The position numbers and the translations under genes were made by a program. The notes under the pieces were generated by a model that searched no databases, was not told the DNA's origin, and saw only the letters and a program-made list of their open reading frames with translations. From Eledone cirrhosa (taxonomy: Eukaryota): a stretch of DNA of 64,000 nt. Below, in pieces: positions 7,317-63,286 of this stretch. The stretch spans positions 44,268,001 to 44,332,000 of the forward strand of contig OZ024741.1 in assembly GCA_964016885.1 (NCBI GenBank). The letters run 5' to 3'. How positions within the stretch are numbered: position 1 is the first letter of the stretch; each line of letters starts with the position of its first letter.

Positions 7317-7327
7317 ATATATATATA

Positions 7328-7500
7328 TTGTTATACTTGGAGAGAATCATATTGTTGTAATATTGCCAGAAATAATAACAGAACACACTCACTGTTTTGT
7401 TGGGTTTGGCTTCTGTATCTTTTATATCCCCATAGTAAATTTATTTAGCTATCAATCTTTATCATCGATTGACCAGCGGTTAAAAATACAGATATAATTA
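7328..7500 (-). mobile_element. Solo terminus (pLTR fragment) of PLE family B
   Basis: tgttatacttgg..gtaatattgccagaa..aacagaacacac matches 57350-57530 and 62768-62938. Confidence 0.8.
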
Positions 7501-7803
7501 TATATATATAAAAACAAATAACGAAACGAAATTAAATTTCGTTTCGTTTGTAACTCACTTTTGTATGACTGACGCTTAAACAATTAAGTTAAAGATGTAC
7601 ATCCATATATGTATACTGAAATACTAGTATGTATATGAATACACACACGTATACATATGTAGATGTACCAAGTTTTTTCACTGGTCACATTACTGTGAGT
7701 GGCCAGCTATTCTGTATGTAAACACACAGACAAACCGGTTTTTAGAGTCATACTGGTTTTTGAGGAAACACCTTTCCTCTATTCTCCAGAAAGCCAGACA
7801 AGG

Positions 7804-7848
7804 AATATTGAACTAGTTTCGTTGTTGTTACAACTCATCAGCAATATT
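7804..7848 (-). ncRNA. Minimal type I hammerhead motif (further copies at 8271-8315, 8738-8782, 9205-9249)
   Basis: Reverse complement of aatattg-CTGATGA-gttg(taacaa)caac-GAAA-ctag-TT-caatatt. Confidence 0.85.
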
Positions 7849-9724
7849 TACCTATCTTCCGGCCTTTCTAGAGAATCGTAAAAGCACATATCGTTATATG
7901 CTTTTTCTATGAAAATTAGTAGTGGGCAGACTAATTTGCATAGAGTGTGAGTAAGTACCGGTTCAACGGAGACGATAAAAACAAATAACGAAACGAAATT
8001 AAATTTCGTTTCGTTTGTAACTCACTTTTGTATGACTGACGCTTAAACAATTAAGTTAAAGATGTACATCCATATATGTATACTGAAATACTAGTATGTA
8101 TATGAATACACACACGTATACATATGTAGATGTACCAAGTTTTTTCACTGGTCACTTTACTGTGAGTGGCCAGCTATTCTGTATGTAAACACACAGACAA
8201 ACCGGTTTTTAGAGTCATACTGGTTTTTGAGGAAACACCTTTCCTCTATTCTCCAGAAAGCCAGACAAGGAATATTGAACTAGTTTCGTTGTTGTTACAA
8301 CTCATCAGCAATATTTACCTATCTTCCGGCCTTTCTAGAGAATCGTAAAAGCACATATCGTTATATGCTTTTTCTATGAAAATTAGTAGTGGGCAGACTA
8401 ATTTGCATAGAGTGTGAGTAAGTACCGGTTCAACGGAGACGATAAAAACAAATAACGAAACGAAATTAAATTTCGTTTCGTTTGTAACTCACTTTTGTAT
8501 GACTGACGCTTAAACAATTAAGTTAAAGATGTACATCCATATATGTATACTGAAATACTAGTATGTATATGAATACACACACGTATACATATGTAGATGT
8601 ACCAAGTTTTTTCACTGGTCACTTTACTGTGAGTGGCCAGCTATTCTGTATGTAAACACACAGACAAACCGGTTTTTAGAGTCATACTGGTTTTTGAGGA
8701 AACACCTTTCCTCTATTCTCCAGAAAGCCAGACAAGGAATATTGAACTAGTTTCGTTGTTGTTACAACTCATCAGCAATATTTACCTATCTTCCGGCCTT
8801 TCTAGAGAATCGTAAAAGCACATATCGTTATATGCTTTTTCTATGAAAATTAGTAGTGGGCAGACTAATTTGCATAGAGTGTGAGTAAGTACCGGTTCAA
8901 CGGAGACGATAAAAACAAATAACGAAACGAAATTAAATTTCGTTTCGTTTGTAACTCACTTTTGTATGACTGACGCTTAAACAATTAAGTTAAAGATGTA
9001 CATCCATATATGTATACTGAAATACTAGTATGTATATGAATACACACACGTATACATATGTAGATGTACCAAGTTTTTTCACTGGTCACTTTACTGTGAG
9101 TGGCCAGCTATTCTGTATGTAAACACACAGACAAACCGGTTTTTAGAGTCATACTGGTTTTTGAGGAAACACCTTTCCTCTATTCTCCAGAAAGCCAGAC
9201 AAGGAATATTGAACTAGTTTCGTTGTTGTTACAACTCATCAGCAATATTTACCTATCTTCCGGCCTTTCTAGAGAATCGTAAAAGCACATATCGTTATAT
9301 GCTTTTTCTATGAAAATTAGTAGTGGGCAGACTAATTTGCATAGAGTGTGAGTAAGTACCGGTTCAACGGAGACGATAAAAACAAATAACGAAACGAAAT
9401 TAAATTTCGTTTCGTTTGTAACCAGTGAAAAAACTTGGTACATCTACATATGTATACGTGTGTGTATTCATATACATACTAGTATTTCAGTATACATATA
9501 TGGATGTACATCTTTAACTTAATTGTTTAAGCGTCAGTCATACAAAAGTGAGTTACAAACGAAACGAAATTTAATTTCGTTTCGTTATTTGTTTTTATCG
9601 TCTCCGTTGAACCGGTACTTACTCACACTCTATGCAAATTAGTCTGCCCACTACTAATTTTCATAGAAAAAGCATATAACGATATGTGCTTTTACGATTC
9701 TCTAGAAAGGCCGGAAGATAGGTA

Positions 9725-9769
9725 AATATTGCTGATGAGTTGTAACAACAACGAAACTAGTTCAATATT
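9725..9769 (+). ncRNA. Minimal type I hammerhead motif (second copy at 10192-10236)
   Basis: 7-bp stem I aatattg/caatatt, core CTGATGA...GAAA, 4-bp stem II, palindromic stem III aactagtt, GUU cleavage triplet. Confidence 0.88.
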
Positions 9770-10452
9770 CCTTGTCTGGCTTTCTGGAGAATAGAGGAAA
9801 GGTGTTTCCTCAAAAACCAGTATGACTCTAAAAACCGGTTTGTCTGTGTGTTTACATACAGAATAGCTGGCCACTCACAGTAAAGTGACCAGTGAAAAAA
9901 CTTGGTACATCTACATATGTATACGTGTGTGTATTCATATACATACTAGTATTTCAGTATACATATATGGATGTACATCTTTAACTTAATTGTTTAAGCG
10001 TCAGTCATACAAAAGTGAGTTACAAACGAAACGAAATTTAATTTCGTTTCGTTATTTGTTTTTATCGTCTCCGTTGAACCGGTACTTACTCACACTCTAT
10101 GCAAATTAGTCTGCCCACTACTAATTTTCATAGAAAAAGCATATAACGATATGTGCTTTTACGATTCTCTAGAAAGGCCGGAAGATAGGTAAATATTGCT
10201 GATGAGTTGTAACAACAACGAAACTAGTTCAATATTCCTTGTCTGGCTTTCTGGAGAATAGAGGAAAGGTGTTTCCTCAAAAACCAGTATGACTCTAAAA
10301 ACCGGTTTGTCTGTGTGTTTACATACAGAATAGCTGGCCACTCACAGTAAAGTGACCAGTGAAAAAACTTGGTACATCTACATATGTATACGTGTGTGTA
10401 TTCATATACATACTAGTATTTCAGTATACATATATGGATGTACATCTTTAAC

Positions 10453-10523
<71 letters not shown>

Positions 10524-10698
10524 TAGATATAGATAGGTAAATATACACGGGTGTGTATGATTGTGTATAGAAGATTATATTAATAAGAGGAATTCCAACT
10601 TTGTCTGATTTACTCGTTTAATTTACAATCCTTTAAAATATATATAATGGTATTATAATGAAATAGTATGATAGAATATTAAATTCTAAGTGTTAATT

Positions 10699-10735
10699 GA
10701 ACAAGTACTGTCATGCTTTCGCAATCTTCAGGTTC
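10699..10735 (-). ncRNA. Candidate hammerhead with almost no stem II
   Basis: Minus strand: gaac-CTGAAGA-ttgc-GAAA-gcatgacagtac-TT-gttc. Confidence 0.45.
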
Positions 10736-10792
10736 ATGATATGTGGTCACAGTCGAGTTTGCAATTTTCAACTATATATATATATATATATA

Positions 10793-12318: not shown

Positions 12319-12330
12319 TATATATATATA

Positions 12331-12460
12331 TAGTCTATCAAAGTTCTTTCGTTCCATATCTGCAACATCATCCGTGGTACTATTATGTTTCCTCCTGTTG
12401 TATTGTATGTCTACGCCATTTTCCTTTTAATTTTATTTTAATCAATGGCAATATTACAAC
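12331..12460 (-). mobile_element. Family B fragment with a degenerate hammerhead (CGGATGA core)
   Basis: Matches 62948-63060 and the reverse complement of 58580-58675. Confidence 0.65.
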
Positions 12461-12532
12461 AATATGACCCTTTTCAAGTATAAAAATATTTGTTTCGACG
12501 CACGGTTGCAGATCATAAGCCTTGCAAAACAA

Positions 12533-12656
<124 letters not shown>

Positions 12657-13205: not shown

Positions 13206-13403
13206 ATTTTAATTACCTAAGATTTATTCTGATTACATAGATATAAATGTTAATAAGTTGATTTGTGTGTGTGATTCGAAAACTTCCTAAACATCTTGTC
13301 AATGGGGACATAATAACGATTTCAAGAAATGCCGTTACAAAGGCTGTGAAAAATGCGATGTGATATGTATGTTAATATTTCAGAGAAATATTAGCTGTTT
13401 TGG

Positions 13404-13438
<35 letters not shown>

Positions 13439-13450
13439 ATATATATATAT

Positions 13451-28000: not shown

Positions 28001-28456
28001 TATCTCAGTACTCAGATCATTGTCTGCTTCGGGTGGTTCCTCCGTTCTCAGGACCTCCTTACCTTCATTTCCCACCGGCTCGCTTGTCTGGCATACTACA
28101 CCCGCCATCTCCAAGCCATTCTCTCTGCTCAGTTCCTCCAGTTCCAGCTCGCTTATCCACCCATTAGTTCTTATTACCCGAGCCTGCCCGGCCAATTTTT
28201 GTTCATCTAATTTAAATAAACCAATCTCGTTCCAGATGTTATGCATCCGTCTCCTGTGGCCCCTCTCCTTGGGGTTACTTTTCAGGTAGCATTGCATAAC
28301 AGTTCTATTCAATTCTTTCGTCCAGTTGGTTCTGGCCCCTTTCCTTCTTCTCCTTCCTCCAACATCAGCAGTATTTGGTTGACAGTCAGGTTCCTGCTGC
28401 TGAGCCAGGGGGCACCTGTTGGGTGAGAGTCTGTCACATGACGTTCTAGTCTCCAT
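25064..28456 (-). pseudogene. ~1130-codon RT/RLE ORF with one in-frame TGA at 27200-27202
   Basis: NYRPITCL, GIFQGDSLSPLLF, LFMDDLK, CRIC..ET..H...C, RHD, RPDLV; the two listed ORFs share a frame; sister copy has TGG (NWKSPGPDG). Confidence 0.93.
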
Positions 28457-28958
28457 TTCACCGTTATTCGAACTGTTTATGTTCGATATTTAAACACTCT
28501 TATCCAGGATTGGCGAATGTATGTTTACATAGCCATCTGTGGATCCGCCATTCCACTTGGCCCTTGTGTGGCATTATCACCACGCTGTATACGAACACAC
28601 ATAACCAAACAAACACACAGGCAGAAAGGGCCCCAAAAATGAATAAGCATAAGTTTCATTGTAATGTAGTGTTCGAATGTCTGACTTAGTTTTAGTTTTT
28701 TAAGTTTTACTTTTTCCCCCCTCTTCTCTGTCCGTCCGCCTGCTTCTCTCTTCATTCTTATTTTCTTTACGTTTTTGGGGTTTCTTTTTTTTGTTTTTGT
28801 TTTTCTCTGTTTGTTTTTCTCGTTTTTTGCTGTTGTTGCTGTGCTGCTTTGGTTTTGTTGTTTGTTTTTTCTTTTTTCTTTTGGGTCTATCTATATATTT
28901 TGATGCCTTCCTCTTTGTTAGTAGTAGGAATTCTATAATGTGGAAGTAGCAGCCACCA

Positions 28959-32700: not shown

Positions 32701-35254
32701 GGGTCATCGTCAACAACAAATGGTGGGTTGCTCTGAAAAGAGCGATTAGAATAGAGTCCATTAGGTTTAGTAAGCCTTTAGCAATAGAGAAAAATAGAGC
32801 AGAGGGAGAACTAGTTAGAAATTTAGACGAGGCGCCTAGCAAAGGCATCGCGACCGACGTAATTGCGGCGAAATTGGCCCTTGACCAATTATTCAATACA
32901 AAGCACGAATGCTGCGTTGGCAGAGCTAGGGTGCGTGCTATCAGACACGAGGGGACGAAAACCGTTCAATGGGCCCGAGTGGCGGAGGCGCGTCGTGGCA
33001 TCAAAGCCACGATCTTGTCTTTGGTGGACCATGACGGGCGCATGCTACTCGATACCGGGAAAATGTCTGAAGCCTTCCAGCGATACTTCGCACAGCTGTT
33101 CGGGCGCAGCGGCGGGCCGGATCAAGGTATCGACTTAAGTGTCTACCTCGACCGACTACCTCGACGGAATGCCCCGGCTGCTGAGAAAGGATCCGAACAA
33201 GGGGGATAACATACATAATTTCAGGCCCATAACTCTGCTACACACAGAGTTCAAGATTTTGGCCAAGGTGCTAGCAAAGAGGTTGGCGCTTGCCGTTGGT
33301 GGTCTTGAGGGAGAGGCGCAGACATGCGCAATTCCCGACAGATCCACCCTCGACAACCTCCACCTCATGCGACACATCGTCGAGAGGGTAGCTAGGGAAC
33401 CTGGCACGGGTGGGTCCTTGATCAATTTAGATCAGTCGAAAGCTTTCGATAGGGTCGACCATCGTTACCTAGCGGCAGTACTGAGAGCGGCTGGTTTTGG
33501 GCCCGTCTTCAGAGGCTGGATCGCTGCCATGCACAGCGACATCTGCTCTGTGGTGAGAGTGAACGGTCACCTTTCGGAACCGTTCAACATCATTCACTCG
33601 GTCCGCCAAAGATGTCCTTCCTCGTCCCTCTTGTACGTATTGATTCTCGAGCCATTACTGCTCAAACTGGAGACGTTGAGGGGGGTCCCGCGCGAACTAA
33701 GATGCGGAAGGTCCGTGTCAGCATATGCGGACGATGTCACCGTAGTGGTGTCGAACGCCAAACACATCGAGGCGATCGGCACTACACTAAGATAATACGA
33801 AGCTGTGACAGGAGCAATGATCAACCTGGAAAAGTCAGTGGGCTTGCACCTCGGCACCTGGAGAGGCAGGTCCATGCCGTCCAACAGCGTCGTCGGGCGC
33901 TGGACGGACGGACCGGTTAAATTGCTAGGGGTCTGGTTCGGTCTGGACCTCAAGACGGACAAAAAATGGGACGAGGTGACGAGCAGGGTGGCTTCTCTCA
34001 CCCAGAAATGGGCGGAGAGGAAGCTATCCCCGAAAGGTCGAGCGGAGCTGGCTAACACGTGCATCGCGTCCGTCATCTACTACTTCCTGACCGTCGTATC
34101 TTCTCCTAAACCCCGCCTGACTGCGCTGGAGCGTTTGCTCTTTCGCTTTTTGTGGAAGGGACGCGCTCCGATGGTCAGGCGGTCCATCTGCTGTCAACAC
34201 CCGCTACGTGGAGGGCTGGGCTTGCCGTGGCTGATGATGCGCACACACGCGCTCAGGCTACGACATCTCCACCTCTTCCTCGACGGTGATAAGGTGTGGT
34301 CGCCGTTTCCTAGACACGACTTTCCCCATCTCGTCTCCTTGACGGAGCTGCAGTCCTGGGTCAAGCGAATACCGAGAGGGAGCGCTTGGAGACTGGAATG
34401 TCTTCAGGCGCTCACGGCCCTCGACCAATCGGGAAATGTGATCGGTGGAAACTCCACCTCGGCATTCTATAGAGGATTAGTGGAGGGGAAGAGCGACGAC
34501 GTACTTGGAGAAACTCTAGGCCTCAACGAAAATAAACTAGCCAATCTCTTCGGAAGGACTTTCGGGCCGGGGTCTATGGACAACTTCAGATATCCCTTAC
34601 CCGGCAGTGCTACCGAGGAGCTTTGCCAGTTCGGAATAAACTCTGAAGGCAGAGAGGTGCCGTCACCGGGCCTGTCCGAGATGCGCGCAGGGCAACGAAA
34701 CCGTTCTGCACGGACTCGTCCAGTGTCCGAGCATTGCTGAATTGTGGGTTTATGTCGAACACCTGCTGTCACGTGTAGGACGGATCCAGCTATCAGCTGA
34801 GTCCATTGTGAGGATTGCCCCGCCCTCTTCCTTTAGCCGGGAAGGGCAGGCAGTTTTTATGTGTATGGTGGCCATGGCGAAAGAGATACTCATTTGAAAA
34901 AGAAAATCAGGGTAGAGAGGGCAGTGCTCTCTTCACAGCATTTTGTTGAAAGATGGGTGAGAGAAGCAAGTTGGGCCCGAGTGAATGGGCCAACTCTGAG
35001 TATGTGTCATAAATTAAAGGTGGAAAACTGGGAGAGGCCACTTTCCCTGATGGTCAGGGTGACTGTGGCCTTTTAATGGGCTCTCTCCACAAATTTCCCT
35101 CGGAAGTCTCCCCCCTATTGAGGAATTTTTCATTGTTATTTTTATTACATCCTCTGTTTTTTTACACTCAGAAATGCCCATTTGTACCGTCATGTATTGT
35201 CCTGTACTCTCCTTAATGTCTACTTTATGTAAAACCTTGTGATTAATAAAGAAA

Positions 35255-35287: not shown

Positions 35288-38200
35288 TTTGAGTCTCAGT
35301 CATTGATGCTAGTTAACTGGAAAGTTTGTTGAAATGAATATCAAGCCACTACCTGCAGCCTCAGATATTCAGGACGTATCGGAGGGTTCTTGCTGTTCCC
35401 AGCAAGCATGCCTTCTGAAGCGTTCCAAATAGCGTGAAGGGGCCAATTTTCTTTAACCATCCCTCGAAACTTTTTGAGATATTCCCTAATGCGCCTATGA
35501 CGATCGGGATCACTTTGACTTCATGGCAGTTCCAAATCCTTTTAACCTCCCACTTTAAGTCCTGGTATCGGTTAATTTTCTCCCTCTCCTTCTCTTGCAC
35601 TCTCGTGTCGATTGGGCAGGCCACATCCACAATCAGGAACGATCTTTTTTCTTTGTCCACAACCACCAGGTCAGGTCTATTGTGTTCCAGTTTCTTGTCC
35701 GTCTGTATCCTAAAATCCCACAGCACCTTCACCTGATCGTTTTCTATCACCGACTCTGGTTTATGCTCATACCACTTCTCAGAATGTGGTAAATTGTTTA
35801 CTTTGCATAGGTGCCAGTGGATCACCCTGCCCATCACATCATGTCTCCAGCCCTTATAGTGAGTCTGGGCTAAGTGTTTACACTCGGATACAATGTGAGC
35901 CACAGTCTCCTCTCTCTCTCCACAGATCATGCACAGTGGGCTAGCCTCCTCCTTGTAAATATGGTGTTTCAACCACTTCGTTTTGTGGGCCTGCTCCTGC
36001 GCAGCCATTAACATTTCTTCTGTAGCCTTTTTAAGGTCTCCTCTTTTCAACCAGTTCCATGTCTGTGGATCTCTAAATTCAGTTTTCTCGAAGAAGGTAT
36101 TATGAAGGGATTTTTCCTGAAGGCTGCTCTTTCTCCTTGAAGTTATTTCCTTCTTGGACATCCCCTGGCCTATTGTCCCCTCCTTCAGTACAGTTCTGAG
36201 CATTGGGTCCTTACTCTCAGTCACGTATTTGTGTAGGTTGTTTTTCTCCATCTGAACACAGTCCTCTATGCTGATAAGACCTCTTCCACCTTCAGATCTC
36301 CTTAAGTAGAGTTTATCGACATCACTCCTCTTGTGGAACATGTTGTAGATAGTCAATAGCTTCCTAGTCTTCCTATCCATTTCTTTTTGTTCAGCAACAT
36401 TCCATCTCAGAATTCCCGCACTGTACCTAAGAATAGACACAGCTCGGGAATTTACTGCACTTATGGCATTCCTACTGTGCAGATGTGACTTTAATACGCT
36501 CCTTACTCTCCGAATGTATTCAGTTCTTATCAATTCATTCATTTTTTTGTTATTGATGTCATCAGCCTCCAGAACACCCAAATACTTGTATCCTTTTTCA
36601 GACTCAATTTCCTTTATCATCTCACCTGTTGGTACCTGGATTCCGTTACTTCTGCTCAACTTACCCCTCTTCATCACAATGACTCCAGACTTACTAATAC
36701 CAAATTGCATACATATATCATTGCTGAAAATACGGACAGTGTCAACAAGCACATCCAACTCCCTCTCACTCTTCCCGAAGAGCTTAAGATCGTCCATGAA
36801 GAGGAGGTGATTGATGGTAAGCCCTCCCTTTCCCAACCGGTATCCTGCTCTCACTTTTCGCAGTACACTGGTCAGGGGCATCAGGGCAAGGACACACAAT
36901 AAAGGGGACAGACTATCTCCCTGGAAGATACCTCTCTTGATCTTCACGCTTCCCAAGGATTCTCCAGTTGAGGTTAACACTGTCTCCCAGGATTTCATAC
37001 TTTTTCCCAACAACTGTCTGATGTTATCTGCCACCTTGAAGATCTCCAGGCTTTTGGTGATAAAAGAATGAGGCACCATGTCAAATGCCTTTTTGTAGTC
37101 TATCCATCCCATGGCAAGACCAGTGTGTCTCCTCTTGCAATTCCTCATTACCATCTTATCAATAAGTAACTGGTCCTTTGTACCACGTGACTTCTTTCGG
37201 CATCCTTTCTGTTCATCTGGTAACAAGTTGTTCGTGTGGAGGTGATGGTAGATTTCCTCAGACATAATGCTTGTCAACAGTTTCCACATTACGGACAGAC
37301 ATCTGATAGGTCTATAGTTGGTAACATCATTACCCTTGATTCGGTCCTTCATTACCAGAACCGTGGTACCTTTTGTCAACCACTCTGGTACCTCACCTGA
37401 CATCAAGCAGTCATTGAACATGGTTGTCAGTTTCGGGTGGAGGGATGTTATATTTTTAATCCAATACCCCTGCACACCATCTGGGCCTGGTGATTTCCAG
37501 TTGGTTAGTTATTTGGCCTGCTCCTTAAGAGTTTCAACTGTGATACTCAAATCAGTTTGTTGGTGTGCCTGTTCACTAATCTCCTTCTGTACTGTCTCAA
37601 TCCACACTGCCTTGTCATTAAGTTTAACATCCTGCTCTCATATCCCTCTCCAGAATGTTTTAGTTTGTTCCGCCTCAGGGATCAAGTCGTTGCCTCTTTC
37701 TTTCCCTTCAAGCTGTCCAAACAGCATCTTCTGGTTGTTGTCGAACATGCGGTTCTGTCTATACTGACTGACTCTGTTCTCTAATAGCCTGATTTTTGCA
37801 CTCTTTGCTACAATGCATTGCTTCAGTTCCTCTATGATAATATTTAGCTTTTTCCTCCTAGTTGTGTACTTTATTTCCAGTCTATTTTTAGTGTCTATGT
37901 TTTTTAGTGTCCCATTCAGTAGGGACTCAAGCTTTCCAATGTCATTTCTCATTTCCCTGATTTGACCACTCAGTCGTTTCTTCCACCAAGGCTCTGATCT
38001 TTCTTGTCTGTTGTTTCCTCTCGCTCTAATACCAAGTAGTTTCCTCACCGTATTTGCTGTTGCTTTGAGGATATTGTTGCACAGGTGAAGGCTCCTCGCC
38101 TCAAGATATGGGATGACTTTGTTTACCTTAGCTGTTGTTTCTTTTAACTTTTTCCTGTCTACAAATCTTAGGTTTATAGGTTTCTCACTATCATTGTTCA

Positions 38201-38461
38201 ATTCATCTACCACTAAGTTTAGGATATCAACCAAATCTTGTCCTAGCCCGTCAGCATTCAGCTCCTCAATGGCCGTATCTCTGTTCCAGGTATTATTTAT
38301 CTCAGCATTCAGATCATTGTCTGCTTCGGGTGGTTCCTCCGTTCTCTCGACCTCTTCACCTTCATTTCCCACTGGCTCGTTTGCCTGGCATACTCCACTC
38401 TCCATCTCCAAGCTAATCTCTCTGCTCAGTTTCTCCAGTTCCAGCTTCTTATCCACCCATC
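35287..38461 (-). mobile_element. 5'-truncated R4/Dong-type LINE family 1, second long copy
   Basis: 704-aa RT/RLE ORF colinear with 25064-27178; nonsense codons upstream; (TTA)n flanks. Confidence 0.92.
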
Positions 38462-38489: not shown

Positions 38490-40828
38490 AGTTGCATTTA
38501 TCTTGATTTATGTTCATACGAGTTATCACTAAGTCACAACCAGTGATCTCAAGAGACAGCAAGGTCCGCCATGTTCAAGAAAGAACATACATACTCACAC
38601 ATGCATCTTTAGTGTTTAGACTTGTGATGTACTTATATTGACAGAATCTTCCTTTGTATATGAGCAGTTCCCATTAGTACTATCTTTTGTATTTCTCCTA
38701 TACGCGGGTTTCCTGGGATTTGCGATAAGTAATCATTAGACCCATTAGGTATCATTCCCAGAGCGCCTACAACCACTGGTATTGTTTTAGTTCTCAATTT
38801 CCACATTTTTCCAATTTCTATCTCCAGGTGCTTATACTTGCTCAACTTTTCAAATGTTTTCATAGATATATTCTTGTCTATTGGAACGGATATATCAATT
38901 AGCGGGCAAACCCTCTTTTTAAAGTCCTTCAATATTATATCAGGTCTATTTGCATCTATTGTTCGGTCTGTTTGGATGCTAAAGTTCCACAAGATTGAGA
39001 TGTGATCTTTTTCAAGTATGGGAGGTGGTTGATGCTCCCACCAATTCTTTTGATGGGGCATGTCAAAATGCTTACACATTATCCAATGTATGTATTGTGC
39101 AGCTCTGTCATGCCTGTTTAGGTATTCGGTTGGAGCTATAGGACTGCACATTGAAATTATATGGTCAATGGTCTCTGGTTGTTTTTTGCATACACGGCAT
39201 AATGGGCTGCATCAATCTTTTATTATGTTGACTTGGTAATTTTTTGTTGGCAGACACTGATCTTGTGCTGATATAATCGGTCCTTCAGTCTCCGATTTCA
39301 GTCCAGAGGATGCCAACCACTGATGGGTTAAAGTTTTGTCAACATCAGGATTGTTAGCTCGCTCTGGGTATTTTCCATACAGAGGCTTTTCTTGCCATTT
39401 CTTAGCCAGTTTCTGTAGCAGTTCTTTCTTTGCAGTTAATTTTACCTGCTTTGCTTTTTCTGTGTTTTCCATTTCAGCAGTAAATGGGACTTCCGAAATC
39501 TGTAGTCCATTACTGTATATTTGTGCATCTTTTGTAATGGAACATGATCTTTTGATGCTTTCGTGTTACAAAACGGGTTTGATCATCCAATCATGTGATT
39601 CCCTTAGATATGTAGATAATCCAATGTTGCAGATTTCAACGCAATGTCTTAACTGGATTAACCCACGTCCTCCTTCTTTCCTAGGGTGATATATTCTATC
39701 TATATCTGCCTTAGGGTGATGCATTCTGTGCATGGTTAAGAATTTTCGAATTTTTGTATCGAGCCTACGGATCTCTGTGCTTGACCAGTTGATGACATTG
39801 TAACTGTAGGTTACTACTGGTATGGCAAGCGTGTTTATGGCATCGATCCTATTCCTTGCATTCAATTCCGTTCTTAAGATTGCACTTACTCTGCGGTAAC
39901 ATTCCTTCCTTATCCTTTACTTCATTGTCGAGTGCTTGATTCCGTCTCCTTCACAAACACCTAGATACTTGTAAGTTTTTTCTTGATCAAGTTCTCTTAT
40001 CACATTCCCCCGATCAAGATTAATGTCTGAACTCTTCAGCAGCTTTCCTCTGGTGAACGTTGCTTTGGCACATTTATCTAGTCCAAACTCCATTTTAATG
40101 GCACCACAGTGGATAATAGCCTTTGCAATTGTTCATCATTTTTTGCAAATAGTTTCAGGTCATCCATGTAGAACAAGTGATTACTGGTTTTGTCATAGAC
40201 TTTATATCCATGTTTTGTTTCATTGAGCATTTTACTTAATGGTATAAGTGCGATGCAGAATAAAAGCGGTGATAAAGAGTCACCCTGAAAAATTCCACAA
40301 TTAATATTAACTTCTCCAGCTTCCAGTGATTTTGTTTCACTATTCAAAAGGAGTGTCGTTTTCCATGTCTTCATACTGAATGACAAAAACCTCCTGACAA
40401 CGGGGGATATTTTGAAAATCTCTAAACATTTTTCAATCCAACTGTGTGGCAAACTATCGAATGCTTTTTTATAATCTATCCAAGCAATCGATAGATTGTT
40501 GTGTCTATTATGACAATCTTCCAGTATCATTTTGTTAACCAAAAGCTGATCCTTACAGCCATATGAGCCTCGTTTACACCCTTTCTGCTCAATGGGAAAT
40601 AGGTCATTTGTTATCAGGTGGTCATATGTGTATTCAGTTAGGACTGATGTTAAAATGTTATACATTGTGGTCAAGCAAGTTATCGGTCTGTAATTTTTGG
40701 GATTGTTTGTCTCATCATTCTTCGGAAGCAGGAATGTAATGCCGTTAACTAGCCATGATGGTATCTTTTCTGGCTCCTTAACTATTTCATTATAAAGTTG
40801 GGCTAACAGCTCATGAGACTCTGTGAAG
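38490..40828 (-). mobile_element. 5'-truncated, frameshifted R4/Dong-type LINE family 2
   Basis: GIFQGDSLSPLLF, FYMDDLK, GGRGL, RHD, RPDII, IPVVVGALG in split ORFs. Confidence 0.9.
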
Positions 40829-40868
<40 letters not shown>

Positions 40869-40917
40869 TTCTTCTTCTTCTTCTTCTTCTTCTTCTTCTT
40901 CTTCTTCTTCTTCTTCT

Positions 40918-40964
<47 letters not shown>

Positions 40965-40997
40965 TTCTTCTTCTTCTTCTTCTTCTTCTTCTTCTTC
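40829..40997. repeat. (TTA)n followed by (TTC)n
   Basis: Direct reading. Confidence 0.95.
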
Positions 40998-41054
40998 CAT
41001 ATATATATATATCTTCTAACCGTCAATATGCAACATGTAATGATGTACAACGAT

Positions 41055-49403: not shown

Positions 49404-49408
<5 letters not shown>

Positions 49409-49916
49409 AAAGAATAGAGGTGTAACACACAAGTTATTATATATTGGTAAACGGAATAGAAAATGCTGACAAATTGTTCACAGCTGAAAAATGGTTTAAT
49501 TAGGAATAAAAGAGTATTAGTGATTGTATGGGTTAGTATTCAGTTGTGGTTTTAAGTTTTTAAGTTTTTACCGGTTGCGCATTTCTAAATGCTTTTCAAA
49601 AATAATTTTGAGATAGGGTGTCCGTGCTGTTTGCTCTGATCTGATTAGTTTTGGGAATTCTACCTGTGTTTATGTTAAAAAAGTGGCTCCAGCGTTATTT
49701 TTGTGTTGCAAAAATGCTTGTGGTCAAAACAATTTTGATTGGTCGGTAGAGGTCATGTGAATGTAAAAAGTTGATTTTGCGCCAAGACTGTTTTTATGTT
49801 AAAAAAGTGGCTCCAGCAAAAATTCTTGGTCAAAACAATTTTGATTGGGCGGTAGAGGTCATGTGGATAAAAAATTGGTTTTGCGCCAAGATTGAGAAAT
49901 GACTCTTTCACAACAA

Positions 49917-49959
<43 letters not shown>

Positions 49960-50057
49960 TGTGTATATGTGTGTGTGTGTGTGTGTAGTAGTAGTAGTAA
50001 GGTGTTCGATGCTGCGACAATGGCCAGCAGCGATGTGTGTCAAATGGCTATTAAGAT

Positions 50058-50095
<38 letters not shown>

Positions 50096-51142
50096 CAGAG
50101 TAATTCGATGGTCAGTAAGAATGTGTCTGAAAGCAATGGGGGGTATTTTAGCAGGTCAAAAGATATTTTTCAGCTTTTGTCTTATACGGAGAAGTGCGCG
50201 TGTGTGTGTGTGTGTATAAGTCTCTTTGTATGTTGATGTACGCGTGTGTATGTGTTTGTGTATATATGTGTGTGTGTGTGTGTGTGTGTGGGTGGACCAG
50301 TATTTTTTTCCCCCTGGTAAAATGGTGTACATTATTCGATTTTTTCAGTAAAATCGGTTCTCTTAATAGAACATCAAAAATCTTAACAATAAAAGGTGTG
50401 AAATGATATTCACTATATATATATACACATACATATGTTCACTACATATATATATATATGTAGTGAATATATATATTAGATTTTCCGATGCACATGTGAA
50501 ATTGTGTTTTACTATAAAACGTTGTCCATCTTCGAAATAGAATTCCGAACCCTCTATAAGTTGATGCAAATGCCACAGTTGGGTCTATCGCATTTTTTTA
50601 CTGTGGGTTTCGTTGTTGTGGTTGGCAGTACATTGGCATGTGTTAAGATGTTTTTCATTGACTTGGATTGTCTTTTGCTCTTTATGATATCGTGTGCCGC
50701 ACAATATCATCCCAACTTCAGAATCTTTCTCCACTACAAATTTAAAGATAATGCCACCCAAACCCAGCGCATCAGCAAGGAATCTTACTTCATTAACAAA
50801 TACGGACCCCGTCTAAACACTTCTCCCTAAGACGAACCCACAACATACACACGTCAACATACATACCTACATCAGCACACATCTCTACCCACATATAAAC
50901 ACAATGACACACGTAAACACACATGCTCTATGGTGCAATACAAAAAAATATATGTGCATATATATGCATGTATATATGTATATATATATATATGTAGTGA
51001 ATATATGTATGTGTATATATATATAGTGAATATCATTTCACACCTTTTATTGTTAAGATTTTTGATGTTCTATTAAGAGAACCGATTTTACTGAAAATAT
51101 CGAATAATGTACACCATTTTACCAGGGGGAAAAAATACTGGT

Positions 51143-51189
<47 letters not shown>

Positions 51190-51231
51190 CACAAACACAT
51201 ACACACGCATACATCAACATACAAAGAGACT

Positions 51232-51268
<37 letters not shown>

Positions 51269-51349
51269 TTCTCCGTATAAGACAAAAGCTGAAAAATATC
51301 TTTTGACATGCTTTCAGACACATTCTTACTGACCATCGAATTACTCTGC

Positions 51350-51412
<63 letters not shown>

Positions 51413-51492
51413 ATCTTAATAGCCATTTGACACACATCGCTGCTGGCCATTGTCGCAGCATCGAACACCTTACTACTACTACTACTACTACT

Positions 51493-51529
<37 letters not shown>

Positions 51530-52042
51530 CATACACACACACACACATACACACACACACACACATATTTGTTGTGAAAGAGTCATTTCTCAATCTTGGC
51601 GCAAAACCAATTTTTTATCCACATGACCGCTACCGACCATCAAAATTGTTTTGACCAAGAATTTTTGCTGGAGCCACTTTTTTAACATAAAAACAGTCTT
51701 GGCGCAAAATCAACTTTTTACATTCACATGACCTCTACCGACCAATCAAAATTGTTTTGACCACAAGCATTTTTGAAACACAAAAATAACGCTGGAGCCA
51801 CTTTTTTAACATAAAAACAGGTAGAATTCCCAAAACTAATCAGATCAGAGCAAACAGCACGGACACTCCATCTCAAAATTATTTTTCAAAAGCATTTAGA
51901 AATGCGCAACCGGTAAAAACTTAAAAACTTAAAAACCACAACTGAATACTAACCCATACAATCACAAATACTCTTTTATTCCTAATTAAACCATTTTTCA
52001 ACTGTGAACAATTTGTCAGCATTTTCTATTCCGTTTACCAAT
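49404..52042. mobile_element. 2.6-kb family A PLE fold-back with rearranged GIY-YIG fragments in the centre
   Basis: 49443-50470 is the reverse complement of ~50995-52041; minus strand IIKSKRQSKS..CDRPNCGIC..HNFTCASENLIY; plus strand KESYFINKYGPRLN. Confidence 0.88.
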
Positions 52043-52065
52043 ATATATATATATATATATATATA

Positions 52066-53931
52066 TTGTTATACTTTGGGAGGGTCAAGTTGCCAATAAG
52101 AAACACACGCACCAGTTGCTTTCAATTCAATTTATTATAATAAAGTTATAAATTTAGGAATTTATAAATTCCCGGTTGGTTGGTTCCACAACCAGATGGT
52201 TGTTTATATATTGTCAAAGTTCTTTCGTCACACATTATGTGACCTCTTCAGTGACTGGTAATTATTTTCTTTGTTTTTGTGTGCCTCTCCTTTGTTCTGT
52301 CCTACGCTATCTTGTTTTTGTGTGTGTGTTGTGTGTTTAGTTTGCGCATGTGTTACATCCGGGTGTCTGTGTGTGTTTATATTCGTTTATTTATTTGTTT
52401 ATTTACATGTTACTGGTTGGTCGTTTGTTCTATGTGCGTATGTGTTTTCATTTTGTCCTTAATTGTAAGTTGTGATGTTGCTGTTCCACTCATGTTTTCT
52501 ATTTAATTTTGGTTGTAATTCATTTACGTTTATTGCCTCTGTGATTTGTCTAAACATTGCGTCTTTTCTGTGTGTAGATTCTATTTTTATTTCTACGTTC
52601 TCTAATTTACCCTTATTTTCTATTTTAGCATGTTGGTAGAGTACAGATGATTCTTTACTATTTTGAAGGTCTCGCTAGTGTTCATTTATCCGTTCCCCTA
52701 TACTACGACCTGTATCACCTATGTACACTATATTTTTATCTCTACATTGTCCTTCAGTATATCTTATGCTATATACTACATTTCTAGTTTTACAGTTAAT
52801 ATGGGTTATTAATTTGCAGATTATACATTTCCTATCTATACAGGGAGGTCTTTGAAAAGGGTATGTATTGGTAATAAGTGTTTTTATGGAGGTACCTGGT
52901 CTTTCTACTATCTTAATATTGGGTTTATGTTTATCTAGGACACTTCTAAATTTGTAAGCTAATTCACCTCTAGGTGAACATTACACTCTGGTATTTATTG
53001 CTATCATACCATGAGTTTATTCTATTAGCCTTATTCCTAGTTCTTTCTATTCTATTCCAAAATTTGCTCCTATACAAGGGGCAGGGCCTATTTGTGTGTT
53101 TATTTACCATTTTTTCCTATTTGGTTCTGGCTCCTCTATAGAAGAACTGGAAATGTAGTATATAGCATAAGATGTACTGAAGGACAATGTAGAGATAAAA
53201 ATATAGTGTACATAGGTGAGACAGCTCGTAGTATAGGGGAACGGATAAATGAACACAGGCGAGACTTCAAGATAGTAAAGAATCATCTGTACTCTACCGA
53301 CATGCTAAAATAGAAAATAAGGGTAAATTAGAGAACATAGAAATAAAAATAGAATCTACACACTGAAAAGACGCAATGTTTAGACAAATCACAGAGGCAA
53401 TACACATACATGAATTACAACCAAAATTAAATAGAAAACATGAGTGGAACAGCAACATCACAACTTACAATTAAGGACAAAATGAAAACACACACGCACA
53501 TAGAACAAACGACCAACCAGTAACTTGTAAATAAACAAATAACTAAACGAATATAAACACACACAGACACCCGGATGCAACATATGCGCAAACTAAACAC
53601 ACAACACACACACAAAAACAAGATGGCGTAGGACAGAACAAAGGAGAGACACAAATAACAAAGAAAATAATCCCCAGTCACTGAAGAGGTCACAGAATTT
53701 GTGACGAAAGAAGTTTGACAATATATAAACAACCATCTGGTTGTGGAACCAACCAACCAACCGGAAATTTATAAATTCTTAAATTTATAAATTTATTATA
53801 ATAAATTGAAGTAAAAGCAACTGGTGCATGTGTTTCTTTTTGGCAACATGACCCTCCCAAAGTATAACAATATCGGTTTCAACACACGTTTTCAGATAAA
53901 GAATCTTGCTAAACAAATTCAGAAACGAACG

Positions 53932-53935
<4 letters not shown>
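52066..53935. mobile_element. Family B' PLE fold-back: GIY-YIG and 3' UTR on both arms, hammerheads at 52213-52255(-) and 53677-53719(+)
   Basis: NVVYSIRC..YIGETARSIGERINEH; gtca-CTGAAGA-g-gtcaca..tgtgac-GAAA-gaac-TT-tgac; inversion at ~53142; ~60-nt tail on the right. Confidence 0.9.
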
Positions 53936-53993
<58 letters not shown>

Positions 53994-53999
<6 letters not shown>

Positions 54000-55443
54000 G
54001 TTAAAAATGTACATCTACATATGCATACTGAAATACTAGTGTGCATATGAATACACACACGTATACATATGTAGATGTAACAAGTCTTTCACTGGTTACT
54101 TTATTGTGAGCAACCCAGCTATTCTGTATGTAAACACACAGACAAACCGGTTTTTAGAGTCATACTGGTTTTCGAGGAAACACCTTTCCTCTATTCTCCA
54201 GAAAGCCAGACAAGGAATATTGAACTAGTTTCGTTGTTGTTACAACTCATCAGCAATATTTACCTATCTACCGGCCTTTCTGGAGAATCGTAAAAGCACA
54301 TATCGTTATATGCTTTTTCTATGAAAATTAGTAGTGGGCAGACTAATTTGCATAGAGTGTGAGTACGCACCGGTTCAGCGGAGACGATAAAAACAAATAA
54401 CGAAACGAAATTAAATTTCGTTTCGTTTGTAACTCACTTTTGTATGACTGACGCTTAAACAATTAAGTTAAAAATGTACATCTACATATGCATACTGAAA
54501 TACTAGTGTGCATATGAATACACACACGTATACATATGTAGATGTAACAAGTCTTTCACTGGTTACTTTACTGTGAGCAACCCAGCTATTCTGTATGTAA
54601 ACACACAGACAAACCGGTTTTTAGAGTCATACTGGTTTTCGAGGAAACACCTTTCCTCTATTCTCCAGAAAGCCAGACAAGGAATATTGAACTAGTTTCG
54701 TTGTTGTTACAACTCATCAGCAATATTTACCTATCTACCGGCCTTTCTGGAGAATCGTAAAAGCACATATCGTTATATGCTTTTTCTATGAAAATTAGTA
54801 GTGGGCAGACTAATTTGCACGTATACATATACATATGTATACGTGTGTGTATTCATATGCACACTAGTATTTCAGTATGCATATGTAGATGTACATTTTT
54901 AACTTAATTGTTTAAGCGTCAGTCATACAAAAGTGAGTTACAAACGAAACGAAATTTAATTTCGTTTCGTTATTTGTTTTTATCGTCTCCGCTGAACCGG
55001 TGCGTACTCACACTCTATGCAAATTAGTCTGCCCACTACTAATTTTCATAGAAAAAGCATATAACGATATGTGCTTTTACAATTCTCCAGAAAGGCCGGT
55101 AGATAGGTAAATATTGCTGATGAGTTGTAACAACAACGAAACTAGTTCAATATTCCTTGTCTGGCTTTCTGGAGAATAGAGGAAAGGTGTTTCCTCGAAA
55201 ACCAGTATGACTCTAAAAACCGGTTTGTCTGTGTGTTTACATACAGAATACCTGGGTTGCTCACAGTAAAGTAACCAGTGAAAGACTTGTTACATCTACA
55301 TATGTATACGTGTGTGTATTCATATGCACACTAGTATTTCAGTATGCATATGTAGATGTACATTTTTAACTTAATTGTTTAAGCGTCAGTCATACAAAAG
55401 TGAGTTACAAACGAAACGAAATTTAATTTCGTTTCGTTATTTG

Positions 55444-55450
<7 letters not shown>
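53994..55450. mobile_element. Second locus of the 467-bp retrozyme-like family: ~1.8 units, then ~1.3 inverted units
   Basis: Period 467 (54001/54468); hammerheads at 54216-54260(-), 54683-54727(-), 55110-55154(+); junction at ~54820-54830. Confidence 0.92.
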
Positions 55451-55505
<55 letters not shown>

Positions 55506-56288: not shown

Positions 56289-56289
<1 letters not shown>

Positions 56290-57182
56290 GAGGTGGGTAA
56301 GAAAAGTTCCAGGACTGATGTCACAAAACATTTATTTCAAACCCAACTTTCACACTAACAGTTTCCTCCTTCAAAGTAATCCCCCTGAAGTTTAATGCAC
56401 TTTTACATCCTTTTCTGCCACGCTTGCATGCACTCCTGGAAAGATTCTTCCAGGATCCACCGCAGTTCCGCGTCACGGCCATTTTGATGTCGTTCACGTG
56501 TTCAAAACGGGTCCCCTCAGGGTCGTACTCGAAGATCCATGACTTATCACCGGTGATGACTGTCTCTAGCAAGTCTGGGTCAGTTTTAGGACGCTCGGGG
56601 ATGTCCTGGCACACTTGCATGCGTCGACCCTTCTGGTCATCGTTCAGCAGCTTTGGCACCATCTTCGCGCAGACTTTCCGCATGTCCAAATCTTCAGTGA
56701 GAATCTTCCAGACGCTGTCCCGATTCATGCCCAGCTCATTTGCCATCAGTCGAAGAGTCAGACGACGATCGCTACGCACCATCTTCCTGACGCGCTCAAT
56801 GTTGACCTCAGTCCTGGTTGTTGAGGGCCTTCAGCTTCTGGGGGTCATCTTCCACGTCCTCGCGTCCTTCTTTAAATATCTTGCACCACTCAAAAACACG
56901 TGAGTGTGACATCGTCTAATCTCCATACACTTACTGCAACAATCCCAGTGCTTCTAACGGAGTTTTCAAGTGTGTTTGTTGCTCGTGCTCATTGCTTGAC
57001 GACCTGAGACAGAGGACATGTATATAAAATGATGAACAAAAAGGTTTGATCACTGCAGAGAGCTAAGATTACAGTTACATACTCCAGGGGGTTACTTTCA
57101 AGGAGAAAACTCTTAGTGTGAAGTTTGGGTGTGAAATAAATATTTTGTGACATCAGTCCTGGAACTTTTCTGACTCACCTCG
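56289..57182 (-). mobile_element. Internally deleted mariner with TA target duplication and ~115-bp imperfect TIRs
   Basis: TA|cgaggtg..gaaaagttccaggactgatgtcacaaaa ... ttttgtgacatcagtcctggaacttttc..cacctcg|TA; DRRLT.R, KVCAKMVPKLL, ITGDKSW.FEYDPE. Confidence 0.9.
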
Positions 57183-57201: not shown

Positions 57202-57287
<86 letters not shown>

Positions 57288-57289
<2 letters not shown>

Positions 57290-58870
57290 GCGGCGATGAA
57301 TTAGTTTTGCGAGGTTTTTTTTATATGAAATCGTGTGTCGAAACAAATATTGTTATACTTGGGGAGGGTCATATTTGTGTAATATTGCCAGAATTAATAA
57401 CAGAACACACGCCTTGTTTGGTTGGCTTTCGCTTCTCGCTGTCTTTTATATCGGTTATCTAACTTACTCGGTCCTCAATGTTGCCATTGACTGACCGACG
57501 GTCAAAAATAGTACAGATACAATATAGACACAAACACATATATATAAGTTTAATATTCTGATCGCAGATTTGGTACGAGTGATGAAGAATGTGTCCCGCA
57601 CGTGAGACCCAACAGAAATGGAAAGACACATCCAACACTTCATCAACCGCATGCAGTTCTCTGGCTACAACCAAAGAGACAGAGTCAGAGTATACGAAGG
57701 AGCCATGGAAAAGTATAAGAACCTCATAGAACTGGACATGAAAGGAATTTGCCCATTATACAGGAGCAAATCATGGAATAGCTTAGATAGGGCTAGACAT
57801 AAGATAGGGAAAGCCACCTCATGGTACGACAACCAGAGATACTAGAGTGTCATGTTTGGAGGGAAATTAGCTAACCAGTGTAGAAAGGCCCTGAGAAAGA
57901 CCCACTTAAAAATAAAGGTGGTAGAAAAGCCAGGAACCACCATAAAATCCCTGATCAGCAAAACCTACCCTTTTAAGAAAACCCACTGTACCAATAGGAA
58001 ATGTATCATATGTAACGTGAACCCCCGGATAAACTGTAAAACTAGAAACGTAGTCTATAGCATAAGATGTACAGAGGGTACTTGCAGAAACATGACAACA
58101 AAATACATAGGTGAGACAGCTCGTAGCATAGGTGAAAGGATAGACCAACACTGGGGGGAACTAAAAGGACGAAAAAACGGGTCAGTACTATACGAACATG
58201 CTAGACAACAACATGACGGTAACATAGACAACATAGAAATTAGAATAATATCTAAACATAGAAATGACACAGCAGATAGGCAAATCAGAGAGGCCAGTGA
58301 AATAGAAATTAGAAGACCAAAGCTAAACAGAAAGAATGAATGGAATAACAACAACACTCAAACAAACAACACTGACCTAAGAGAAGTATAAATAAGTAAA
58401 TAAAATAAGATAAATAAATAAATACATACACAAGCACAATAACAACAAGCACATAAACACACACAAGTCACCCATCACACAGCAAGCATAACACTATACA
58501 CACACGCAAACGCATGCGCAAAGAAGACGAAATAAAATAAACAAACAAGCAAATAAATAAATAAATATATAGACAGACTGAATAAAAATGGCGTAGACAT
58601 ACAACACAACAGGAGGAAAATATAACACCAATGACGATGTTGCAGATGTGCAATGAAAGATTTATGATAAACTATATATATGTGTTTGTGTCTATATTGT
58701 ATCTGTATTATTTTTGACCGTCGGTCAGTCAATGGCAACATTGAGGACCGAGTAAGTTAGATTACCGATATAAAAGACAGCGAGAAGCGAAAACCAACCA
58801 AACAGTGAGTGTGTTCTGTTATTAATTCTGGCAATATTACACAAATATGACCCTCCCCAAGTATAACATA
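57288..58870. mobile_element. Family B PLE: inverted pLTR with tail (57288-57548), then a 5'-truncated sense copy (RT thumb end, GIY-YIG, 3' UTR/pLTR)
   Basis: 57350-57545 is the reverse complement of 58675-58867; ORFs 57618-57845 and 57852-58391. Confidence 0.9.
57618..58391 (+). pseudogene. PLE GIY-YIG endonuclease region (possibly Naiad-like; clade not tested)
   Basis: SGY, KVVEKPG, C..C.IC, NVVYSIRC, YIGETARS..ER..QH, RQI.EA, N.K.EW. Confidence 0.85.
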
Positions 58871-62673: not shown

Positions 62674-62720
62674 TAGAGTTGAGATGGAGTGTCTATGGTT
62701 TTTCTCACATATATATATAT

Positions 62721-63200
62721 TTGTTTTGCGATGTTTTTCATATGAAATCGTGAGTCGAAACAAGTATTGTTATACTTAGGGAGTGTCATATTGTTGTAAT
62801 ATTGCCAGAAATAATGACAGAACACACTCACGTTTTCGTTGGTTTTCGCTTCTGCATCTTTTATATCTCCATAGTTAATTCAATCGGCCATCAATGTTTA
62901 TCGTTGACTGACGAACGGTCAAAAATACAGATATAAATATATATATATAGTCTAACAAAGTTCTTTCGTTGCACGTCTGCAACATCATCAGTGCCACTAT
63001 TATCATGTTTCCCCCTATTGTATTGTATTGTTATGTCTACGCCATTTTTATTTTTATCTATCAGTCAATGATAAACATTGATGGCTGAATGAATTAGCTA
63101 TGGAGATATAAAAGATGAAGAAACGAAAACCAACCGAACATTGAGTGTGTTCTGTTATTATTTCTGGCTATATTACAAAAATATGACCCTCCCCAAGTAT

Positions 63201-63207
<7 letters not shown>
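62721..63207. mobile_element. Family B fold-back with hammerhead at 62953-62996(-) and ~45-nt tail on the left
   Basis: tggca-CTGATGA-t-gttgca(gacg)tgcaac-GAAA-gaac-TT-tgtta; arms 62767-62910 and 63060-63207. Confidence 0.85.

Positions 63208-63286
<79 letters not shown>

What the first reader, a model, noticed from the sequence alone, without database searches (positions are those of the whole stretch)
53994..55450. Independent second 467-bp locus with the same two termini in mirror image
Seen: locus 1 starts (TA)n-aaaacaaataacg and ends ttaacttaatt-(AT)n; locus 2 starts aattaagttaa and ends cgttatttgttttta-(TA)n. These are the same two sites, ~70 nt apart in the monomer, swapped left to right. 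Copy number and internal junction differ. About 20 differences per unit separate the loci, while each locus is nearly homogeneous internally. None of the differences falls in the ribozyme, but only ~2 would be expected there, so this is weak evidence of selection. Inference: each array came from one template variant in a single event.
Basis: partly seen in the sequence, partly recalled or inferred. Interest (0 to 1): 0.75.

Follow-up and report, generated by a model that had tools for sequence, protein, structure and literature searches.

The report
Retrozyme arrays with Penelope insertion signature
Two separate insertions of a 467-base, ribozyme-carrying repeat end at the same two points, in the back-to-back layout that Penelope-type retrotransposons leave, which suggests that these small RNA parasites are copied into the genome by Penelope enzymes.

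Summary
Both loci (7508-10458, 53994-55450) are head-to-head arrays of one non-coding 467-nt unit carrying a type I hammerhead. They sit in (TA)n tracts and end at the same two unit positions, 74 nt apart. The 'mirror image' is the same anatomy inserted in the opposite orientation. Monomers cluster by locus across both arms (0-3 differences within, 21-23 between).

This anatomy (inverted 5'-truncated arm, a tail on one end only, TA target) is the published integration signature of Penelope-like elements (PLEs). There the tail was shown to lie between two reverse-transcription start sites. Six other insertions in the window share the anatomy, two with GIY-YIG remnants. Public reads show tandem units in 4 of 4 runs and the same outer terminus in two runs. 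The family carries a likely compensatory change in hammerhead stem II and no listed variant in the tail.

Best reading: a non-LTR retrozyme mobilised in trans by a PLE that primes twice on one template variant, circular or multimeric. I found no report of this signature on retrozymes. Cleavage, circles and the partner PLE are not shown.

The parts
53994..55450 (.). Locus 2: head-to-head array of the 467-nt hammerhead unit, both outer ends being 3' ends of the hammerhead-sense strand
53994..54819 (-). Locus 2 left arm, 826 nt (1.77 units), unit 111 to unit 2; ends at inner site B, no tail
54818..54845 (.). Locus 2 inversion junction: 12-13-bp fold-back hairpin made of the right arm's 5' end, joined to the left arm through a shared CA
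54830..55450 (+). Locus 2 right arm, 621 nt (1.33 units), unit 390 to unit 76; ends at outer site A
55377..55450 (+). 74-nt one-ended 'tail' between sites B and A, containing a 13-bp hairpin; identical in both loci
55110..55154 (+). Type I hammerhead (helix I 7 bp, stem II 5 bp, 2-bp palindromic helix III, GUU at the cleavage site)
54683..54727 (-). Type I hammerhead, identical copy in the left arm
54216..54260 (-). Type I hammerhead, identical copy in the left arm
53934..53993 (.). (TA)n target tract left of locus 2, shared with the tailed end of the neighbouring PLE
55451..55485 (.). (TA)n tract right of locus 2
7508..9422 (-). Locus 1 left arm, 1915 nt (4.1 units, 4 hammerheads), unit 30 to unit 76; ends at site A, tail at 7508-7581
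9421..10458 (+). Locus 1 right arm, 1038 nt (2.2 units, 2 hammerheads), unit 366 to unit 2; ends at site B; 2-nt microhomology at the junction
52067..53933 (.). Comparator: PLE remnant next to locus 2 with the same anatomy (inverted arms 94.5% alike, GIY-YIG remnant, hammerhead-like motif near 53680, about 62-nt tail on the right end only)
7326..7508 (-). Older PLE pLTR end whose internal TA tract holds locus 1; its continuation lies at 12315-12536

Best explanation
A non-autonomous, hammerhead-bearing RNA (non-LTR retrozyme) integrated in trans by a Penelope-like element's reverse transcriptase and GIY-YIG endonuclease. Steps: (1) Tandem arrays are transcribed in the hammerhead sense [inferred]. 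The palindromic 2-bp helix III should allow cutting mainly in multimers, giving monomers that may be closed into circles [inferred from PMC4209133, PMC7229834]. (2) A PLE protein recognises the conserved hairpin region between sites B and A [inferred; conservation shown]. (3) It nicks both strands of a (TA)n tract and starts reverse transcription twice, at A from one strand and at B from the other [ends and target shown; enzyme inferred from PMC11167929]. (4) Each cDNA runs a variable distance, 1.3-4.1 units and through 1-4 hammerhead sites, so the template is a circle or an uncut multimer [lengths shown; I put the circle at about 55%]. (5) The two cDNA ends are joined through microhomology or a short fold-back [junctions shown], giving a head-to-head array with the tail on one end. 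One template variant serves both arms.
For: Same two 3' ends at both loci, P about 3e-4 by chance. Monomers cluster by locus. Head-to-head polarity, one-ended tail and TA target match the PLE descriptions in 10.1101/2021.04.23.441226 and PMC3846280, which also reports palindromes at the inverted junction. The tail equals the stretch between two RT start sites, with both strands cut and extended (PMC11167929). Six other insertions in the window share the anatomy, two with GIY-YIG remnants, and both loci sit in TA tracts of or beside PLEs. The tailed arm is the longer one in L1 and the shorter one in L2, so neither arm is always a copy of the other. Reads: 467-nt tandem joint in 4 of 4 runs; (AT)n loose ends exactly at site A in 6 contigs of X1 and 1 of X6; 2 X1 contigs start exactly at site B. 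Circular monomer fold z = -12 to -13 in the hammerhead sense against -7 to -8 antisense (40 shuffles each). Stem II double change T218A/A229T. 14 of 18 paired X1 variants keep or restore pairing, against a null mean of 8.2. 0 of 40 listed variants fall in units 1-76, 6.5 expected.
Against: No sequence likeness between this tail and the 4 PLE tails tested from the window (shuffle P 0.20-0.88), so no partner is identified. The tail (74 nt) is longer than the 30-40 nt in print, though PLE tails in this window are about 45-64 nt. The hammerhead scores 37.7-38.6 bits, under Rfam's 52, and both loci have GUU rather than GUC at the cut site (GUC is a minority family variant). Site B joined to (TA)n was not among the loose ends shown (112 rows hidden), and contigs of X5 and X6 cross B unbroken. 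L2's arms are both shorter than L1's, so anatomy alone does not exclude derivation by central deletion. The tail test used 40 of 73 variant rows, clustered and partly the same as the L1/L2 differences; the 10 new X1 variants alone give P=0.17. Three of the 14 structure-keeping variants are compensated pairs that the null cannot produce, and the structure was predicted from L2. A target duplication cannot be read inside (TA)n.
Confidence: 0.75

Rival explanations
1. PLE-mediated insertion, but only one priming on the RNA; the inverted arm arises by self-priming, fold-back or use of an antisense template, and the tail is made when the endonuclease resolves the intermediate (older PLE models).
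For: The locus 2 junction holds a 12-13-bp fold-back hairpin. PMC3846280 reads junction palindromes as self-priming. 10.1101/2021.04.23.441226 ascribes the tail to endonuclease resolution. Identical arms follow directly.
Against: A fold-back copy should be symmetric at the junction and contained in the first arm. The junctions are asymmetric (units 30|366 and 111|390), and the longer arm is the tailed one in L1 but the untailed one in L2. In vitro, two RT start sites delimit the tail (PMC11167929).
Confidence: 0.12
2. Both loci descend from one palindromic array copied at the DNA level, then changed by central deletion and unit loss and homogenised by gene conversion; the shared ends are inherited.
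For: L2's arms (621, 826 nt) are each shorter than the matching L1 arms (1915, 1038 nt), so one central deletion could give L2's outline. Long palindromes and tandem arrays are known to rearrange and homogenise (recalled).
Against: No shared flank beyond (TA)n. All 20 differences would have to sweep both inverted arms at both loci, whereas the arms of neighbouring PLE insertions have diverged by about 2-11%. Site A recurs in several contigs and in a run with another organism label. Unrelated families in the window show the same anatomy.
Confidence: 0.07
3. A non-autonomous DNA transposon (MITE-like in TA, or Helitron-like with internal tandem units) that happens to carry a hammerhead.
For: TA target and long inverted arms. 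A mariner-like element with terminal inverted repeats sits in a TA tract nearby (56289-57182).
Against: The two outer ends are different sequences (A versus B), so there are no terminal inverted repeats. Internal junction and length differ per locus. Strand-specific RNA folding and hammerhead covariation.
Confidence: 0.03
4. Assembly artefact: fold-back chimeric long reads and collapsed consensus create the inversions and the homogeneity.
For: Near-zero variation within each locus. The inversion junctions themselves were not covered by the read check.
Against: Chimeras would not stop at the same two unit positions, nor give a one-ended tail in 8 elements of several families. Site A and the tandem joint are seen in independent runs. 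The L2 arms differ at 3 positions.
Confidence: 0.03

Closest known systems
Animal non-LTR retrozymes (Cervera and de la Pena 2020, PMC7229834; Li, Clavereau and Pollet 2026, 10.64898/2026.07.22.740005)
   Same: Non-coding tandem units with a type I hammerhead in each, low GC (36%), strongly folded monomer, dispersed multi-copy family; PLEs already proposed as the mobiliser.
   Different: These papers describe head-to-tail repeats; word searches of their main texts found no inverted arrays or tails. Their PLE link rests on co-occurrence and pLTR homology; here it rests on insertion anatomy, and no pLTR homology was found. Unit 467 nt against 150-450 (2020) or 51-972 (2026). GUU cut triplet.
EN+ Penelope-like elements (Penelope/Poseidon, Neptune, Naiad) and the Anolis PAc in vitro system (10.1101/2021.04.23.441226; PMC3846280; PMC11167929)
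   Same: Inverted 5'-truncated copy head-to-head, tail at one end, AT-rich or (TA)n target, palindrome at the inverted junction, hammerhead upstream of the two ends.
   Different: No RT or endonuclease ORF; both arms are multimers of one short unit; tail 74 nt rather than 30-40; canonical-type rather than minimal hammerhead.
Non-autonomous Chlamys PLEs such as MRC1 (passage in 10.1101/2021.04.23.441226)
   Same: [quoted passage not shown]
   Different: [quoted passage not shown]

Membership tests
Non-LTR retrozyme | Tandem units of a few hundred bases | tested here: met
   467-nt period, 1.3-4.1 units per arm; tandem joint in 4 of 4 runs
Non-LTR retrozyme | Complete type I hammerhead in consecutive units | tested here: met
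   9 identical 45-nt motifs with core and helices I-III; Rfam HH9 37.7-38.6 bits, E 3e-6 to 6e-6, below gathering score 52; GUU triplet
Non-LTR retrozyme | Non-coding, low GC | tested here: met
   No ORF of 120 aa or more over either locus; 169 of 467 bases G or C
Non-LTR retrozyme | No LTR, primer-binding site or polypurine tract | not tested
   No LTR layout is visible; PBS and PPT were not searched
Non-LTR retrozyme | Self-cleavage of the transcript | not testable with these tools
   Needs in vitro transcription; the 2026 preprint saw cleavage in only 1 of 9 predicted elements
Non-LTR retrozyme | Expressed as circular monomer RNA | not testable with these tools
   Only the folding prediction is available
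Penelope-like element (autonomous) | RT plus GIY-YIG ORF | tested here: not met
   Non-coding: it is not itself an autonomous PLE
PLE integration signature | Inverted, 5'-truncated copy in head-to-head orientation | tested here: met
   Both loci
PLE integration signature | Tail extension on one end only | tested here: met
   74 nt at both loci; longer than the published 30-40 nt
PLE integration signature | AT-rich or (TA)n target | tested here: met
   4 of 4 ends abut TA repeats
PLE integration signature | Target-site duplication | tested here: inconclusive
   Unreadable inside (TA)n
PLE-derived non-autonomous element | Sequence likeness to the pLTR of an autonomous PLE | tested here: inconclusive
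   Not met for the 4 PLE tails tested from this window (P 0.20-0.88); BLAST of the unit finds only the two loci; rest of the genome not available
Non-autonomous DNA transposon (MITE) | Matching terminal inverted repeats at both outer ends | tested here: not met
   Ends A and B are different sequences

The most novel reading that the evidence does not exclude
Each locus records two reverse transcriptases of one PLE dimer, primed on opposite target strands, rolling around the same 467-nt circular RNA from two start sites 74 nt apart. The tail hairpin would be a portable PLE-recruiting signal that needs no homology to the PLE. These loci would then be direct genomic evidence for circular-RNA-templated twin priming, explaining both retrozyme spread and PLE inverted/tail structures.
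Probability: 0.35. Interest if true: 0.72.

Novelty: new variant of a known kind. Interest (0 to 1): 0.5.

Why it matters
Which enzyme moves animal retrozymes has been argued from co-occurrence and pLTR likeness, and how PLEs make their inverted, tailed insertions is still unsettled. Here a retrozyme carries the full PLE footprint at base resolution, twice. That names the likely RT start sites and a 74-nt candidate recognition element. Because the arms exceed unit length, it also gives a direct test of circular versus linear templates in the existing in vitro PLE assay. Both ingredients are known, which caps the surprise.

Tried and rejected
Whole-genome analysis: no genome is held, so no genome-wide tree or census of ends. 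Rfam at gathering threshold: 0 hits in the window; the hammerhead appears only at E-value thresholds. Pfam: 0 families for 5 of 5 PLE-like fragments; the Atlas gave GIY-YIG-bearing clusters at score 0.97 (family on 13-18% of members) for the one fragment sent. A 21-nt tail pattern found 0 matches in metagenome and viral contigs. No RNA holder listed. The many read ends and loose ends of RAD run X24 all fall on AATT sites (54326, 54345, 54409-54414, 54461): a restriction-digest effect, rejected as evidence on termini, and it masks site B. One opposite-strand joint in X24 (54395/54632, 5 reads) could not be oriented. My first ungapped comparison gave 35 differences; this was an indel artefact, corrected to 20. 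Tail likeness to PLE tails: not significant. Look-ups of earlier findings by sequence, place and one word set were blank.

Full report
Observation. The window holds two arrays of a 467-nt unit and no other copy. With the hammerhead strand as sense and window 54908 as unit position 1, locus 1 (7508-10458) is a minus arm of 4.1 units ending at unit 76 (site A) plus a plus arm of 2.2 units ending at unit 2 (site B). Locus 2 (53994-55450) is a minus arm of 1.77 units ending at B plus a plus arm of 1.33 units ending at A. The arms meet head-to-head, so both outer ends are 3' ends, and all four abut TA repeats. Reverse-complemented, locus 2 starts and ends like locus 1: the mirror image is opposite orientation. 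One end therefore carries 74 nt that the other lacks. Matching both ends by chance has P about 3e-4 even among the 84 positions ending in AT or TA. Junctions differ: units 30|366 with a 2-nt microhomology in L1; units 111|390 with a 12-13-bp fold-back in L2.

Variation. The two consensus monomers differ at 20 positions. Among the 8 full monomers, distances are 0-1 within L1, 3 within L2 and 21-23 between loci, both arms included. None of the 20 lies in the 45-nt hammerhead (1.9 expected, P=0.13) or in units 458-76 (3.7 expected, P=0.017).

The unit. It is non-coding and 36% GC. It holds a type I hammerhead: helix I 7 bp, stem II 5 bp, a 2-bp palindromic helix III, GUU at the cut site. Rfam HH9 scores it 37.7-38.6 bits, below the gathering score of 52. 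PMC4209133 (passages) says such short palindromic helices III work as dimers in tandem repeats. That GUU cuts less well than GUC is recalled, not checked. As a circle the monomer folds at z = -12.4 and -13.0 in sense, -7.0 and -7.6 in antisense (40 shuffles each).

Family evidence. One monomer (54200-54666) was laid on 4 of the 24 listed runs. The 467-nt tandem joint appears in all 4. (AT)n loose ends sit exactly at site A in 6 contigs of X1, which may be the window's source, and in 1 of X6, which has another organism label and study. Two X1 contigs of a length variant start exactly at site B, which is indirect support. B joined to (TA)n was not among the rows shown (112 hidden), and X5 and X6 contigs cross B unbroken. 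X24's read ends are at AATT sites and are uninformative. Of the 40 variant rows shown (33 hidden), 4 lie in the hammerhead: T218A and A229T (partners in stem II, similar counts in X24 and equal depth in X6, so probably on the same molecules), U17 to C (giving GUC), and a loop III change. None hits the conserved core. 14 of 18 paired X1 variants keep or restore pairing, against a null mean of 8.2 (0 of 20,000), but 3 are compensated pairs that the null cannot make. None of the 40 lies in units 1-76 (6.5 expected, P=0.0008). The variants are clustered and overlap the L1/L2 set; the 10 new X1 variants alone give P=0.17.

Context. The same anatomy (inverted arms, TA flanks, extension on one end) is seen in six other insertions: 52067-53933 (tail about 62 nt), 57286-58868 (about 63), 62720-63208 (about 46), the split element 7326-7508 plus 12315-12536 (about 45), 49405-52047 (about 33) and a second tandem family at 2573-4119 (557-nt unit, 79-nt tail). 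The first two carry GIY-YIG remnants with a C-X4-C-X2-C motif upstream and a C-terminal position, which fits the Neptune/Nematis description. Locus 2 lies in the TA tract at the tailed end of the first; locus 1 lies in an internal TA tract of the split one. The retrozyme tail does not resemble the 4 PLE tails tested (P 0.20-0.88), whereas those resemble one another (P 0.003).

Mechanism. 10.1101/2021.04.23.441226 (passages) and PMC3846280 (passages) describe PLE insertions as partial tandems with an inverted 5'-truncated copy, a 30-40-bp tail on one end, junction palindromes and a microsatellite bias. PMC11167929 (parts 1-2 of 4) showed in vitro that a PLE protein cuts and extends both target strands, starts at two internal RNA sites, and that the tail is the stretch between them; uncut RNA was the main substrate. 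I read A and B as those two start sites. The tailed arm is longer in L1 and shorter in L2, which favours two separate primings over copying of one arm from the other, though central deletions could blur this. The arms cross 1-4 hammerhead sites and their 5' ends do not fall at the cut site, so the template was a circle or an uncut multimer; the data do not separate these. Shown: ends, polarity, target, junctions, clustering, conservation. Inferred: transcription, cleavage, circle, enzyme, twin priming.

Comparison and novelty. It meets the sequence criteria for an animal non-LTR retrozyme, and is not an autonomous PLE or a MITE. PMC7229834 (passages and Discussion) and PMC7761336 (passages) propose PLEs as the likely mobiliser; 10.64898/2026.07.22.740005 (parts 1-3 of 5 and a word search) adds co-occurrence and pLTR homology. 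In what I read, none describes inverted, tailed retrozyme arrays; 'retrozyme + head-to-head + Penelope' gave 0 papers, and the listings showed none by title or abstract. PMC4209133 does note pairs of minimal hammerheads on opposite strands 100-700 bp apart, and 10.1101/2021.04.23.441226 notes non-autonomous PLEs with multi-copy insertions. I did not see the supplements of any of these papers, and repeat databases and subscription journals were not searched; such arrays may be drawn there.

Verdict. Real; a new retrozyme family showing the PLE integration footprint. New variant of a known kind, interest 0.5.

Noticed in passing
window 2573-4119: Second, unrelated tandem family (557-nt unit) with the same anatomy: head-to-head arms of 1.5 and 1.3 units, 79-nt tail on the left only, TA flanks, arms about 97% alike. 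It has a hammerhead-like core near 3816-3935 with an unusually long stem III, not recognised by Rfam.
   Followed up: partly
reads on window 54598-54664 and 54567-54569 (run X24): T>C on the plus strand (A>G in hammerhead sense) at 27 places against 10 for A>G (P=0.003). Six sites at 54619-54637 occur in about 111 reads, mostly from 1 start; 11 of 12 listed sites have 5' A or U. This could be A-to-I editing of the RNA template fixed in genomic copies; RAD site selection or single-molecule amplification may inflate it, and X1 shows no such bias. One literature search listed nothing on point.
   Followed up: partly
window 7326-12536: Nested stack: an older PLE end is split at its internal TA tract by locus 1 and by another inverted-ended element (about 10773-12332, with a PLE-like ORF remnant at 11763-12410).
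   Followed up: partly
window 49405-55485: Chain of three head-to-head tailed insertions, each in the TA tract at the end of the previous one (49405-52047, 52067-53933, locus 2).
   Followed up: partly
window 46326, 47687, 48543, 48693, 61138: Further minimal hammerhead-like motifs of PLE type, including an opposite-strand pair at 48543/48693.
   Followed up: no
window 53918-53933 and 55407-55423: The neighbouring PLE's tail ends in a 14-nt motif much like the 5' arm of the retrozyme's tail hairpin; not significant against shuffles (P=0.20).
   Followed up: yes
window 10530-10545: A 14-nt match to the sequence just upstream of the hammerhead lies about 70 nt beyond locus 1's right end, next to GATA-like repeats; possibly chance.
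   Followed up: no
window 56289-57182: Mariner-like DNA transposon remnant with about 100-nt terminal inverted repeats, also in a TA tract (family label recalled from the translation).
   Followed up: no
window 13291-14691, 25064-28489, 32310-34740, 35361-38459, 40078-41022: Several non-LTR retrotransposon ORF remnants (reverse transcriptase motifs visible; family not tested).
   Followed up: no
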